From the NCBI RefSeq assembly GCF_013122565.1, contig NZ_CP053258.1: a stretch of 64,000 bases of DNA; one strand, 5' to 3'. Made by a program: the position numbers. Below, piece after piece: positions 22,201 to 25,200 of this stretch. Positions within the stretch are counted from its first letter, which is position 1, and every line of letters begins with the position of its first letter. Source of the DNA: Escherichia coli. Its GTDB lineage: Bacteria > Pseudomonadota > Gammaproteobacteria > Enterobacterales > Enterobacteriaceae.

Positions 22201-25200
22201 CCATGCCAGGCGTGATGCGCATTCCAGAAAAACATCTGGCGCGTGAGATCGAACGTATCGCCAACGCCGGTATTCGTTCGGTGATGACCTTCGGCATTTC
22301 CCACCATACCGATGAAACCGGCAGCGATGCCTGGCGGGAAGATGGACTGGTGGCGCGTATGTCGCGCATCTGCAAGCAGACCGTGCCAGAAATGATCGTG
22401 ATGTCAGATACTTGCTTTTGTGAATACACTTCTCACGGTCACTGCGGCGTGTTGTGCGATCACGGCGTTGATAACGATGCAACCCTGGTCAATCTGGGTA
22501 AACAGGCAGTAGTTGCCGCAGCTGCGGGTGCTGATTTCATCGCCCCTTCCGCCGCGATGGATGGTCAGGTGCAGGCGATTCGCCAGGCACTGGATGCCGC
22601 AGGCTTTACCGACACGGCAATCATGTCCTACTCAACGAAATTCGCCTCCTCTTTTTATGGCCCGTTCCGCGAAGCGGCAGGCAGTGCTCTAAAGGGCGAT
22701 CGCAAAAGCTATCAGATGAATCCAATGAACCGTCGCGAGGCGATTCATGAGTCGCTGCTGGATGAAGCTCAGGGCGCAGACTGCCTGATGGTAAAACCTG
22801 CCGGTCCGTACCTTGATATCCTGCGCGAATTGCGTGGGCGTACTGAACTGCCGATCGGCGCGTATCAGGTGAGCGGTGAGTACGCGATGATTAAGTTCGC
22901 CGCGCTGGCGGGTGCTATAGATGAAGAGAAAGTCGTGCTCGAAAGCTTAGGTTCAATTAAGCGTGCGGGTGCGGATCTGATTTTCAGCTACTTTGCGTTG
23001 GATTTGGCTGAGAAGAAGATTCTGCGTTAATTCTGTTACCTCTCAGAAAGGGGGAGTTAACCTGTTGAAAGTACGGTGAACTCCCCCTCATCCTCTCCCC
23101 AAGGGGGCGAGAGGACCGTCCGCGCTCGTATCACCCCGCCCGATAAAACGGTTTATCCCCAAGGATCGTCGCCCGATGCATAATCCGCCGCTGTGGCAGG
23201 TAATCCGCATTAGCATAGTGCTGAGTCACGCGATTATCCCAAATCGCGATATCATTCGGTTGCCAGCGCCAGCGCACCTGAAACTCCGGTTTGGTGATAT
23301 GGGCGAATAAAAAGCTTAGCAAGGCTTCACTCTCTTTCTCGCTGACATCAACAATTCGCGTGGTAAAGCCTTCATTCACAAACAGCGCCTGTTTACCGCT
23401 CACCGGATGCGTTCGCACCACCGGATGTAGCAACGGCGGATTTTTCGCGACCGCCTCGCGCCAGCGTTGATGCTCCTCCTCGGTTTTGCGGTATTTGTAT
23501 TCCGGGAACGATTTACGGAAATCATGCTCGGCACGCAGCCCGCTCAGCAGCTGGCGGAAGGGAACAGAGAGCGCCTCATAGGCCGCAATACCACTGGTCC
23601 AGAGCGTATCGCCGCCGGTCGAGGGTAACTCTTTCGCCGCCAGAATCGCCCCTGCGGGTGGCGTTTCAATAAATGTCACATCGGTATGCCAGTTGTCGTT
23701 ATCCGGCGGATTATCGTTATGGGTATCCAGTACGATAATCTCCTCAACCCCTTCGGCATGAGGGTAAACAGGGTGAATATGCAGCTCGCCAAAACGCAGG
23801 GCCAGCGCGCGTTGCTGCTGCGGCGTAATGGCTTGATCGCGCAGAAACACCACCTGATGGCGCAGTACCGCATGGTAAAGCTGTTCAAACTGATTATCGC
23901 TTAACGGGCGCGTCAGGTCGGCACCCGAGATTTGTGCGCCAATATACGGCCCCAGCGGGGTAATGCTCAGACGTTCACTCATTGTACTTCTCCATGCCAG
24001 GGCGTCAGGCGGCGCTGTAACGCGCGCAGACCCAGTTCTAAAAGAAAGGCGATAATCGCAATCACCGCGATCCCCGCCAGCACCACGTCAGTCGCGAGAA
24101 ATTCACCCGCTGACTGCACCATAAATCCTAAACCGCGCGTTGCAGCAATCAGCTCCGCCGCTACCAGCGTAGACCAGCCCACACCCAGACCAATGCGTAA
24201 TCCGGTGAGGATTTCCGGCAGCGCGCCGGGTAAAATAACAAACCACAGCAGCTGCGCACGGCTGGCACCCAGCGACTGGGCGGCACGAATGCGAACCTGC
24301 TGCGCGCTTTTCACCCCCGCCAGCGCCGACATCGCCACCGGTGCAAAAATCGCTAAATAGATCAGTAAGATCTTCGAGGTTTCACCAATACCAAACCAGA
24401 TCACCATCAGCGGCAAATAGGCCAGCGGCGGCACCGGACGATAAAGCTCGATTATCGGATCGAGAATGCCGCGCACCGTCGGACTTAGCCCCATCGCGAT
24501 CCCAACCGGAATACCGATCAACACCGCCGCAATTAACGCCAGCACAATGCGCGTCAGGCTGGCGGCCAGATGCTGCCACAGGGTGGCGTCCATAAATCCC
24601 TGCGGCCCGGCAATGATGAGCAGTTTTGCCAGTACCTGTTGCGGCGGCGGCAAAAACAGCGGGCTAATCAGTTGCAGCGCTGCCACCGCCCACCATACAG
24701 TGAGTAAAACCGCTAACGTGCCAATGCTTAAAGTGACCTGACGCGAGAGCGGCCAGCGCCATTTCAGCCGCCGCGAATGCAGTTTTTCATTAATAAGCAC
24801 ACTCATGAGAACGCCTCCCGTTGCTCAAATACGCGGCTTAAAACATATTCGCGCATGGCGATGAATTGTGGATCGGACTTGATGCTGCGGCTCGACTCTC
24901 CCGCAACAAAGCGGCGAGCAAAGTTGAGCGGCAGCCGCTCCAGCACGCGGCCAGGGCCGGGTGAAAGCAGAACCAGTTCAGTCGCCATAAACACCGCTTC
25001 TTCTATATCGTGGGTAATCAACAACACCTGCTTGCCCGTCTCCTGCCAGAGTTTCAGCAGCAGGGTTTGCATCTGGTCGCGGGTGAAGGCGTCCAGCGCA
25101 CCAAACGGTTCGTCGAGTAATAACAGCTGGGGATTTGCCGCCAGCGCGCGGGCAATCCCCACCCGCTGACGTTGACCGCCGGAAAGCTGCCAGATGTAGC

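What the first reader, a model, noticed from the sequence alone, without database searches (positions are those of the whole stretch)
23031..23130. Tandem stem-loops in the 100-bp gap between convergent hemB and tauD
Two G/C-rich hairpins (gggggagtt...aactccccc and cctctcccc...ggggcgagagg) fill the gap between convergent genes. They could act as bidirectional terminators that insulate hemB from the sulfate-starvation-regulated tau operon.
Basis: seen in the sequence. Interest (0 to 1): 0.2.

Follow-up and report, generated by a model that had tools for sequence, protein, structure and literature searches.

The report
BoxC repeat hairpin plus a local hairpin
The two hairpins between hemB and tauD are real, but one is a worn copy of the known E. 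coli BoxC repeat, and they more likely cap and protect transcript ends, with Rho terminating further downstream, than act as two-way terminators, so the finding is ordinary.

Summary
Observation confirmed. The 100-bp gap (23031-23130) between convergent hemB and tauD holds two stable stem-loops: HP1 at 23050-87 (about -20 kcal/mol) and HP2 at 23091-115 (about -16 kcal/mol). Both fold better than shuffled sequence.

HP2 is a degenerate copy of the dispersed BoxC / PIT / TMECO / HPGQ repeat. Its K-12 orthologue is already catalogued as TMECO #5 and HPGQ 13. The family has a median of 18 places per E. coli genome. The window copy has a 6-nt deletion that removes the third G block, so the triplex and G-quadruplex potential is lost and only the hairpin remains. 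HP1 is single-copy, and five of the nine bases of its 3' arm belong to the BoxC end.

None of the four hairpin/strand combinations looks like an intrinsic terminator. Only HP1 on the tauD strand has a weak UUUCU tail. Published work reports no terminator activity for these elements. In K-12, hemB-strand transcription reads through the gap and is stopped by Rho inside antisense tauD. At lldD, a BoxC in the same orientation marks a Rho-region 3' end 4 nt after its hairpin.

About one third of E. coli genomes, and other Escherichia species, carry an unrelated single hairpin in this gap.

Best reading: the hairpins protect transcript 3' ends from exonucleases after Rho termination. Already known; low interest.

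The parts
22056..23030 (+). hemB (porphobilinogen synthase) coding sequence; stop codon TAA at 23028-23030
   Evidence: The ORF list gives 22023..23030. RefSeq annotates the orthologue as a 975-nt hemB, which places the start at 22056.
23031..23130 (.). 100-bp gap between the convergent genes. This is the 'long allele', made of HP1 plus a BoxC remnant.
   Evidence: The homologous 106-bp gap is present in about 3,596 of 5,426 complete E. coli genomes.
23045..23049 (-). Short U tail (UUUCU on the tauD strand) directly after HP1. It is the only terminator-like tail in the gap.
   Evidence: Tail score nT = 2.85 and discriminant d = -14.3. The first U can also pair as the closing A-U of HP1.
23050..23087 (.). 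HP1: a locus-specific long-loop hairpin with a 9-bp perfect stem (GGGGGAGTT/AACTCCCCC) and 20 nt between the arms. Five of the nine bases of its 3' arm (CCCCC) belong to the BoxC end.
   Evidence: Single copy in E. coli genomes and present only with the long allele. The C run is shared with the BoxC consensus.
23083..23124 (-). Degenerate BoxC / PIT / TMECO / HPGQ repeat, with the G-rich strand on the tauD sense strand. It is orthologous to MG1655 TMECO #5 (388,664-388,699). A 6-nt deletion removes loop 2 and part of the third G block.
   Evidence: Alignments. Holder 2015 Table 1, verified on the K-12 sequence. Kaplan 2016 HPGQ 13. Median of 18 places per genome.
23091..23115 (.). HP2: the BoxC Watson-Crick hairpin (blocks 1 and 2), with 10 pairs and one bulged C.
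23116..23193 (+). C-rich, G-poor stretch (C 40%, G 22%) directly after HP2 in the hemB direction. It is a candidate Rho-loading (rut) region and lies antisense to the tauD 3' end.
   Evidence: Composition. K-12 Rho termination region at 388,499 on the hemB strand. Dar & Sorek 2018 place rut sites directly downstream of protective stem-loops.
22852..23029 (-). C-rich, G-poor stretch (C/G about 1.6-2.0) after HP1 in the tauD direction. It is a candidate Rho-loading region for tau read-through and lies antisense to the hemB 3' end.
   Evidence: composition only; no expression data
23131..23982 (-). tauD (taurine dioxygenase) coding sequence, the last gene of tauABCD

Best explanation
The gap is the shared 3' untranslated region of two convergent transcription units. 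It holds two structural elements.

HP2 is a decayed copy of BoxC, a known dispersed E. coli repeat also published as PIT, TMECO and HPGQ. It is the orthologue of MG1655 TMECO #5. HP1 is a locus-specific hairpin that exists only because a G run pairs with the C run at the end of that BoxC copy.

Neither hairpin is a canonical intrinsic terminator. The most likely mechanism is as follows. RNA polymerase leaving hemB reads through both hairpins. Rho then loads on the C-rich untranslated RNA just beyond them and terminates inside antisense tauD. 3'-to-5' exonucleases trim the RNA back until the stable hairpins stop them, leaving a protected hemB 3' end a few nucleotides after HP2, near 23116-23120. 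In the opposite direction the same hairpins would protect the tauABCD mRNA, with HP1 and its UUUCU tail perhaps adding weak intrinsic termination before Rho acts inside antisense hemB.

Shown: the structures, the repeat identity, the orthology, the population polymorphism, and the K-12 Rho region. Inferred: the exonuclease-blocking role, by analogy with the lldD BoxC and with the general rule of Dar & Sorek.
For: Identity of the elements.
- HP2 and its flanks align to a family with consensus CCCCTCACCCTAACCCTCTCCCCAAAGGGGCGAGGGGACCGTCCGCG. Copies lie at dolP/yraQ, dusC, purK/ybcF, ytfR/ytfQ and tusA/zntA.
- The family has a median of 18 places per E. coli genome, whereas the HP1 half has 1.
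- The K-12 orthologue is listed verbatim as TMECO #5, type 'A mm', at 388,664-388,699 (sequence verified). It is also listed as HPGQ 13 between tauD and hemB.

Not intrinsic terminators.
- The terminator scan is empty in the gap.
- All d scores are negative.
- Published work reports no terminator activity for PIT elements.

Rho acts downstream.
- Adams 2021 Supplementary file 2 lists position 388,499 on the minus strand, antisense to tauD. Coverage upstream/downstream is 86/33 without bicyclomycin and 146/213 with it. Rho score 3.80, p = 2e-9.
- The same pattern appears at a second BoxC-bearing convergent gap, tusA/zntA, with a Rho region at 3,607,955 on the minus strand.
- A rut-like stretch (C 40%, G 22%) begins immediately after HP2.

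Protective role.
- Dar & Sorek 2018 found that Rho-dependent transcripts end just after stable stem-loops that lack U tracts. These stem-loops block PNPase and RNase II, and rut sites lie directly downstream.
- The curated primary 3' end of lldD (3,781,065) lies 4 nt after the hairpin of BoxC TMECO #17, which sits in the same orientation as the hemB RNA. That end is flagged as within a significant Rho region and has an intrinsic-terminator score of 1.3, below the 3.0 cut-off.

Some hairpin is always present after hemB, but not a homologous one.
- Other Escherichia species carry the short-allele hairpin, Citrobacter carries REP-like palindromes, and Kluyvera and C. youngae carry canonical GC hairpins with a T run.

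Weak sign of selection on pairing.
- Three of the eight substitutions that separate the window from K-12 close mismatches or extend stems.
- Only 35 of 1,500 random 8-substitution sets fold as well on both strands.
Against: - No 3' end has been mapped for hemB or tauD themselves. Neither gene has a curated Term-seq end in Adams 2021.
- The Rho score uses 800-nt windows, so its peak position is coarse.
- The data come from K-12. The K-12 allele differs from the window by a mismatch in HP1 and by an intact third BoxC block that can compete with HP1 on the tauD strand.
- Four other BoxC loci checked (adk, tusA/zntA, phnP, gcvP) have no curated 3' end beside the element, so the lldD case may not generalise.
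- About a third of E. coli genomes lack both hairpins. This particular pair is therefore dispensable.
- The substitution test was designed after seeing the data and is only marginal (p about 0.02).
Confidence: 0.55

Rival explanations
1. No function. HP2 is simply a decaying selfish or neutral BoxC copy that is tolerated where it does no harm, in a gap between two gene ends. HP1 is a fortuitous pairing between a G run and the C run at the BoxC terminus.
For: - The gap is polymorphic by presence or absence. About 1,800 of 5,426 E. coli genomes carry an unrelated 39-bp gap.
- The long allele appears derived, because E. whittamii and two other Escherichia lineages carry the short one.
- The window copy has lost its third block.
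- Holder 2015 and the Maher laboratory found no regulatory role for these elements.
- BoxC copies favour convergent gaps and avoid divergent ones: 6 versus 1 of 16 in Kaplan 2016. That is the pattern expected for insertions that are merely tolerated.
- The top of the HP1 stem varies among strains, for example in PT62 and MB30.
Against: - Every lineage examined keeps some stable hairpin directly after the hemB stop codon, although the sequences are not homologous.
- The window's substitutions tend to improve both stems.
- A BoxC hairpin does mark a real mRNA 3' end at lldD.
Confidence: 0.27
2. One reading: both hairpins are Rho-independent terminators that work in both directions and insulate hemB from the tau operon.
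For: - Both stems are GC-rich and stable on both strands.
- HP1 is preceded by AGAAA, so it is followed by UUUCU on the tauD strand.
- One E. coli allele (PT62) has a longer tail, UUUUU, at that position.
- Convergent gaps often do hold bidirectional terminators (general knowledge).
Against: - No U tract follows either hairpin in the hemB direction, or HP2 in the tauD direction. All d scores are negative and the scan is empty.
- HP1 has 20 nt between its arms.
- PIT/BoxC elements showed no terminator activity.
- K-12 hemB-strand transcription passes through the gap and is Rho-terminated downstream.
- The lldD end at a BoxC scores 1.3, against a cut-off of 3.0 for intrinsic termination.
Confidence: 0.08
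3. The element acts at the DNA level. The BoxC forms an intrastrand triplex or a G-quadruplex that stalls polymerases or promotes local rearrangement.
For: - The family forms a triplex in vitro, and TMECO loci are hypervariable between strains (Holder 2015).
- A switch between G-quadruplex and hairpin was shown by circular dichroism (Kaplan 2016).
- The window does carry a divergent patch of about 6.5 kb around this locus.
Against: - The window copy lacks loop 2 and most of the third G block. Only two G runs of three or more bases remain, so neither a full triplex nor a canonical G-quadruplex can form (read directly from the sequence).
- In vivo footprinting did not support a stable triplex.
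- The strongest divergence nearby is in the surface-exposed passenger domain of yaiT, which has its own reasons to vary.
Confidence: 0.05

Closest known systems
BoxC repeat of E. coli, also published as PIT (potential intrastrand triplex) element, TMECO (Holder et al. 2015) and HPGQ/HPG1 (Kaplan et al. 2016)
   Same: HP2 and its flanks match the family consensus and are the positional orthologue of MG1655 TMECO #5 / HPGQ 13. The element is intergenic and G/C-rich, it contains the block 1/block 2 hairpin, and it keeps the conserved ACCGTCCGCG flank.
   Different: The window copy has a 6-nt deletion that removes loop 2 (TTA) and part of the third G block. It also has two substitutions that turn the usual mismatched stem into 10 pairs with one bulge. 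It is therefore a hairpin-only remnant without triplex or G-quadruplex potential.
Protective 3' stem-loops of Rho-dependent transcripts (Dar & Sorek 2018)
   Same: A stable stem-loop with no U tract lies directly after a stop codon. C-rich, G-poor RNA follows immediately downstream. Read-through in the K-12 orthologue is sensitive to bicyclomycin.
   Different: The steady-state 3' end of hemB has not been mapped. There are two hairpins in tandem here, and one of them is a dispersed repeat rather than a unique sequence.
REP/BIME extragenic palindromes
   Same: Both are dispersed, GC-rich palindromes found in 3' untranslated regions and convergent gaps. REPs are known to stabilise upstream mRNA against exonucleases. 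In Citrobacter the same hemB-tauD gap is in fact occupied by REP-like sequences.
   Different: There is no sequence similarity to the REP consensus, and no GCCGGATG or CCGGCCTAC motif in the gap. Copy number is far lower, about 20 against several hundred. No associated transposase is known.
Bidirectional intrinsic (Rho-independent) terminators between convergent genes
   Same: A GC-rich hairpin lies between two convergent stop codons. HP1 has a short A run on one side, which gives a short U tail on the tauD strand.
   Different: There is no U tract on the hemB strand. HP1 has a long loop. Discriminant scores are negative. Rho-dependent read-through is documented in K-12.

Membership tests
BoxC / PIT / TMECO / HPGQ repeat | Sequence match to the family consensus, including the conserved flank (…CCCTCTCCCC-loop-GGGGCGAGGGG-ACCGTCCGCG) | tested here: met
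   Alignment with five other genomic copies. 23 of 23 MG1655 copies are listed in Holder Table 1.
BoxC / PIT / TMECO / HPGQ repeat | Positional orthology to a catalogued member | tested here: met
   The K-12 gap aligns column for column with the window. The K-12 sequence at 388,664-388,699 equals TMECO #5 exactly. It is also HPGQ 13.
BoxC / PIT / TMECO / HPGQ repeat | Three-block architecture: C block, loop, G block, TTA or CCG loop, second G block (GGGTGAGGGG) | tested here: not met
   Blocks 1 and 2 are present. A 6-nt deletion removes loop 2 and the start of block 3. Searches of the window for the full motif return 0. The copy is a degenerate member, the 'TMECO mutated' class of Holder 2015.
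BoxC / PIT / TMECO / HPGQ repeat | Dispersed, multi-copy, intergenic | tested here: met
   Median of 18 places per E. coli genome, up to 34. All sampled copies are intergenic. This is the only copy in the 64-kb window.
BoxC / PIT / TMECO / HPGQ repeat | Forms an intrastrand triplex or G-quadruplex in vitro | not testable with these tools
   From the sequence alone, the window copy has only two G runs of three or more bases, so formation is unlikely.
Intrinsic (Rho-independent) terminator | GC-rich stem-loop with a short loop | tested here: inconclusive
   HP2 has 10 pairs and a 4-nt loop, which meets the feature. HP1 has a 9-bp stem but 20 nt between the arms, outside the usual 3-8 nt.
Intrinsic (Rho-independent) terminator | U-rich tract immediately 3' of the stem | tested here: not met
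   The tails are UCAUCCUC and CCGUCCGC (hemB direction), UGAGGGGG (tauD direction, HP2) and UUUCUGAG (tauD direction, HP1). Tail scores nT are 1.34, 0.21, 0.92 and 2.85. All d scores are below 0. The scan finds no site in the gap.
Intrinsic (Rho-independent) terminator | Termination at the hairpin that does not depend on Rho | tested here: not met
   Published K-12 data show a bicyclomycin-sensitive termination region on the hemB strand, about 150 nt beyond the gap, and no curated 3' end inside the gap. The tauD strand is untested.
Rho-dependent terminator with a protective stem-loop (Dar & Sorek 2018) | Stable stem-loop without a U tract, with C-rich/G-poor RNA directly downstream | tested here: met
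   C 40% and G 22% in the first 78 nt after HP2; C/G about 1.6-2.0 after HP1 on the other strand.
Rho-dependent terminator with a protective stem-loop (Dar & Sorek 2018) | Bicyclomycin-sensitive read-through | tested here: met
   For the K-12 orthologue only, from the literature: Rho score 3.80, p = 2e-9.
Rho-dependent terminator with a protective stem-loop (Dar & Sorek 2018) | Steady-state 3' end a few nucleotides after the stem-loop, lost in exonuclease mutants | not testable with these tools
   No hemB or tauD 3' end appears in the curated tables. The paralogous BoxC at lldD has such an end, 4 nt after its hairpin.
REP / BIME | REP consensus palindrome (GCCGGATG…CCGGCCTAC type) | tested here: not met
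   The motif is absent from the 100-bp gap, read directly from the sequence. It is present in the same gap in several Citrobacter species.

The most novel reading that the evidence does not exclude
In this lineage a selfish BoxC repeat, capable of forming a triplex or G-quadruplex, may have been remodelled under selection into a clean twin-hairpin RNA module. A 6-nt deletion removes the third block, which in K-12 competes with HP1 on the tauD strand. Three substitutions close a mismatch in HP1 and tighten HP2, so that both hairpins now fold independently on both strands. That would be a small case of a repeat being domesticated into a 3'-end element shared by two convergent mRNAs.
Probability: 0.12. 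Interest if true: 0.35.

Novelty: already known. Interest (0 to 1): 0.12.

Why it matters
It matters mainly for annotation. G/C-rich hairpins in E. coli convergent gaps should be checked against the BoxC/TMECO family before they are called terminators. The hemB-tauD gap is a clear example: the end of hemB transcription is set by Rho, not by the visible hairpins. The locus also shows in miniature how the same 3' slot is filled by unrelated hairpins in different lineages: a simple hairpin, a REP, a BoxC, or a true terminator. That pattern suggests selection for having some 3' stem-loop rather than for any particular sequence. No open question becomes testable because of this finding.

Tried and rejected
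- **Rfam.** The permissive search of the gap gave only chance-level hits (E about 1-8). The gathering-threshold search of the whole window gave nothing.
- **REP/BIME.** Rejected, because the REP consensus is absent from the gap.
- **Small gene in the gap.** NC_000913.3 annotates nothing between tauD and hemB. The 42-aa ORF at 23088-23216 is an out-of-frame overlap of tauD with nothing to support it.
- **A second, decayed BoxC under the HP1 5' arm.** The best alignment is 14 of 17 to the reverse complement of a type-B element, reached by 4-6 of 500 shuffles. This is suggestive only and is not claimed.
- **Finding the window's own allele elsewhere.** Two metagenome scans returned 0 hits. Exact-sequence look-ups of TauD and HemB found nothing on record. 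No complete E. coli genome exceeds 95.1% identity over the 300-bp query spanning the gap.
- **Published 3' ends for hemB or tauD.** No supplementary files were held for Choe 2022, Dar & Sorek 2018 or Grünberger 2022. TERMITe has no hemB or tauD entry. Ju 2019 and van der Ploeg 1996 are not held.
- **Curated 3' ends beside other BoxC copies.** None at adk, tusA/zntA, phnP, fabI-upstream, gcvP or alx. One was found at lldD.
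Full report
**1. The observation**

hemB ends with its TAA stop codon at 23028-23030 on the + strand. 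tauD occupies 23131-23982 on the - strand. The gap is therefore exactly 23031-23130.

Two inverted repeats lie in it. HP1 has arms GGGGGAGTT (23050-58) and AACTCCCCC (23079-87) with 20 nt between them. HP2 has arms TCCTCTCCCC (23091-100) and GGGCGAGAGGA (23105-115), giving 10 pairs with one bulged C.

As RNA, HP1 folds at -21.7 kcal/mol on the + strand and -21.6 on the - strand (z = -4.5 and -4.9). HP2 folds at -16.7 and -16.9 (z = -3.3 and -3.5). The whole gap gives z = -3.57 on the hemB strand and -2.07 on the tauD strand.

**2. What the two hairpins are**

The window is ordinary E. coli-like DNA. Most 500-bp tiles are 97-99% identical to K-12. The stretch from about 19,500 to 26,000 is different: it covers the yaiT passenger domain, hemB and tauD-tauB, and is only 69-96% identical. 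No complete E. coli genome matches it better than about 95%.

The gap has two unrelated alleles in E. coli.
- About 3,596 of 5,426 genomes, including K-12 and O157:H7, carry a 106-bp 'long' allele that is homologous to the window.
- About 1,800 genomes carry a 39-bp 'short' allele with a different single hairpin, ATGCCGGGTTatccAACCCGGCAT.

I searched the two halves of the long allele separately. The HP1 half is single-copy and present only with the long allele. The HP2 half has a median of 18 places per genome, and up to 34. Copies fetched from dolP/yraQ, dusC, purK/ybcF, ytfR/ytfQ and tusA/zntA give the consensus CCCCTCACCCTAACCCTCTCCCCAAAGGGGCGAGGGGACCGTCCGCG.

This is the BoxC repeat, reported as 56 bp and about 32 copies. 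It was later re-described as PIT and TMECO (Holder et al. 2015, PMC4666352) and as HPGQ (Kaplan et al. 2016, PMC5100583). Holder's Table 1 lists TMECO #5, CCCTCGCCCCCTTGGGGAGAGGGTTAGGGTGAGGGG, at MG1655 388,664-388,699. I verified that this is the K-12 tauD-hemB gap sequence. Kaplan lists the same site as HPGQ 13, 31 nt from tauD and 54 nt from hemB.

**3. How the window copy differs**

All eight E. coli long alleles I aligned have the full three-block BoxC and a mismatch in HP1 (AACGCCCCC). The window differs in three ways.
- It lacks 6 nt, which removes the TTA loop and the start of the third G block.
- It has T instead of G at 23082, which makes HP1 perfect (-20.1 against -15.7 kcal/mol).
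- It has C-to-T at 23091 and G-to-A at 23112, which tighten HP2. O157:H7 shares the second of these.

With the third block gone, only two G runs of three or more bases remain. The triplex or G-quadruplex potential that defines the family is therefore lost.

In K-12 RNA of the tauD strand, the minimum-energy fold pairs block 1 with block 3 and disrupts HP1. In the window both hairpins form on both strands.

Five of the nine bases of the HP1 3' arm belong to the BoxC terminus. HP1 in its present form therefore depends on the BoxC terminus and probably arose after the BoxC was in place. A weak similarity (14 of 17 bases, p about 0.01) between the HP1 5' region and another BoxC hairpin hints at a second, decayed copy, but it is not convincing.

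Applying 8 random substitutions to the K-12 sequence carrying the deletion folds as well as the window on both strands in 35 of 1,500 trials. This is a marginal hint, made after seeing the data, that pairing has been favoured.

**4. Are they terminators?**

The consensus scan finds no terminator-like site in the gap. The tails after the stems are:
- UCAUCCUC after HP1 and CCGUCCGC after HP2, in the hemB direction;
- UGAGGGGG after HP2 and UUUCUGAG after HP1, in the tauD direction.

The d'Aubenton-Carafa scores are -41.5, -50.9, -40.4 and -14.3. All are negative, with the caveat that modern energy parameters were used.

The most direct evidence is Adams et al. 2021 (PMC7815308). They list a significant Rho termination region on the hemB strand at 388,499, antisense to tauD and about 150 nt beyond the gap. 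Coverage upstream/downstream is 86/33 without bicyclomycin and 146/213 with it, giving a Rho score of 3.80 and p = 2e-9. No curated Term-seq 3' end lies in 388,6xx-388,7xx, and hemB does not appear in their tables.

The same thing happens at another BoxC-bearing convergent gap. tusA transcription crosses the element and is Rho-terminated inside antisense zntA, at 3,607,955.

**5. Most likely mechanism**

Dar & Sorek 2018 (PMC6061677) showed three things about Rho-dependent transcripts. They end precisely just after stable stem-loops that lack U tracts. These stem-loops block PNPase and RNase II. The rut sites lie immediately downstream.

The window fits this description. The first 78 nt after HP2 on the hemB strand are 40% C and 22% G. 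The 20-200 nt after HP1 on the tauD strand have a C/G ratio of about 1.6-2.0.

There is a direct precedent within the family. The curated primary 3' end of lldD (3,781,065) lies 4 nt after the hairpin of BoxC TMECO #17, and the C-rich strand is in the RNA exactly as it is in hemB mRNA. That end is flagged as within a significant Rho region, and its intrinsic-terminator score is 1.3 against a cut-off of 3.0.

I therefore propose the following. Polymerase reads through, Rho terminates downstream, and exonucleases trim the RNA back to HP2/HP1, which cap the hemB mRNA. In the other direction the same hairpins cap the tau mRNA, with HP1 and its UUUCU tail possibly giving some weak intrinsic termination.

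The read-through and Rho steps are shown for K-12. The capping step is inferred. Against generalising it, several other BoxC sites have no curated 3' end beside them.

**6. Evolutionary context**

A scan of species-representative genomes with the hemB 3' end returned 63 loci.
- The short-allele hairpin is present in E. whittamii, in Escherichia sp. MOD1-EC7003 and in a third divergent Escherichia lineage. The long allele (HP1 plus BoxC) therefore appears derived.
- In Citrobacter the same convergent gap holds REP-like palindromes.
- Where hemB is followed by a different gene (Kluyvera, C. youngae) there is a textbook GC hairpin with a T run.

A stem-loop after hemB is thus universal, but its sequence is not conserved. 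This fits a generic need for a 3' structure. It fits equally well with convergent gaps being safe landing sites for palindromic repeats.

**7. Verdict**

The interpretation as bidirectional intrinsic terminators or insulators is largely not supported. One hairpin is a catalogued repeat, and the K-12 orthologue is explicitly listed in two published tables. The finding is already known and of low interest.

The only mildly novel element is the lineage-specific remodelling of the BoxC into a hairpin-only form with a perfected HP1. I could not find this allele in any other genome or metagenome.

Noticed in passing
window 19500-26000: This patch is locally divergent in an otherwise 97-99% K-12-like window. 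Identity to K-12 is 69-75% in the yaiT passenger domain, 84% in the yaiT-hemB spacer, 88-93% in hemB and 95-96.6% in tauD-tauB. Within hemB, single 100-bp windows range from 79% to 99%. No complete E. coli genome exceeds about 95.3% over hemB-tauA. The pattern looks like an imported or recombinant segment.
   Followed up: partly
window 18567-21530 (-): An intact 987-aa YaiT-type autotransporter ORF. In K-12, yaiT is a pseudogene split by IS3.
   Followed up: no
window 26600-34650: About 8 kb with no K-12 match lies between tauA and frmR, where K-12 has yaiS-yaiP-yaiX(IS2)-yaiO. It encodes a LuxR-type response regulator, a MASE1 histidine kinase, an MFS transporter and an ABC importer (SBP_bac_6 binding protein, double permease, ATPase with a TOBE_2 domain).
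   Followed up: partly
window 1473-4213 (-): A 762-aa ORF ending in DUF2773 and a 151-aa SF0329-family ORF occupy the place where K-12 has only the ykiA pseudogene remnant. About 1.5 kb here has no K-12 match.
   Followed up: partly
L002 401-439 and L003 701-739 (E. coli short allele); L052, L073, L017: The alternative 39-bp hemB-tauD gap carries one perfect 10-bp hairpin, ATGCCGGGTT/AACCCGGCAT (-16.2 kcal/mol). By my own hand estimate its d score is also negative, so it also lacks a convincing U tract. It is shared with other Escherichia species, so the two alleles are an old replacement polymorphism that runs exactly from stop codon to stop codon.
   Followed up: partly
not in the window: MG1655 3,607,955 (-) and 624,680 (-), from Adams et al. 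2021 supplements: Two other BoxC sites show notable transcript behaviour. At tusA/zntA, tusA read-through across a BoxC is Rho-terminated inside antisense zntA. In the fepB 5' leader, a very abundant orphan 3' end (about 103,000 reads) lies 4 nt before a pair of inverted BoxC copies, TMECO #7 and #8.
   Followed up: no
L073 about 9605-9660 (Escherichia sp. MOD1-EC7003): The 3' end of tauD appears shortened by a deletion between two direct CGCCCGAT repeats, compared with the other Escherichia sequences.
   Followed up: no
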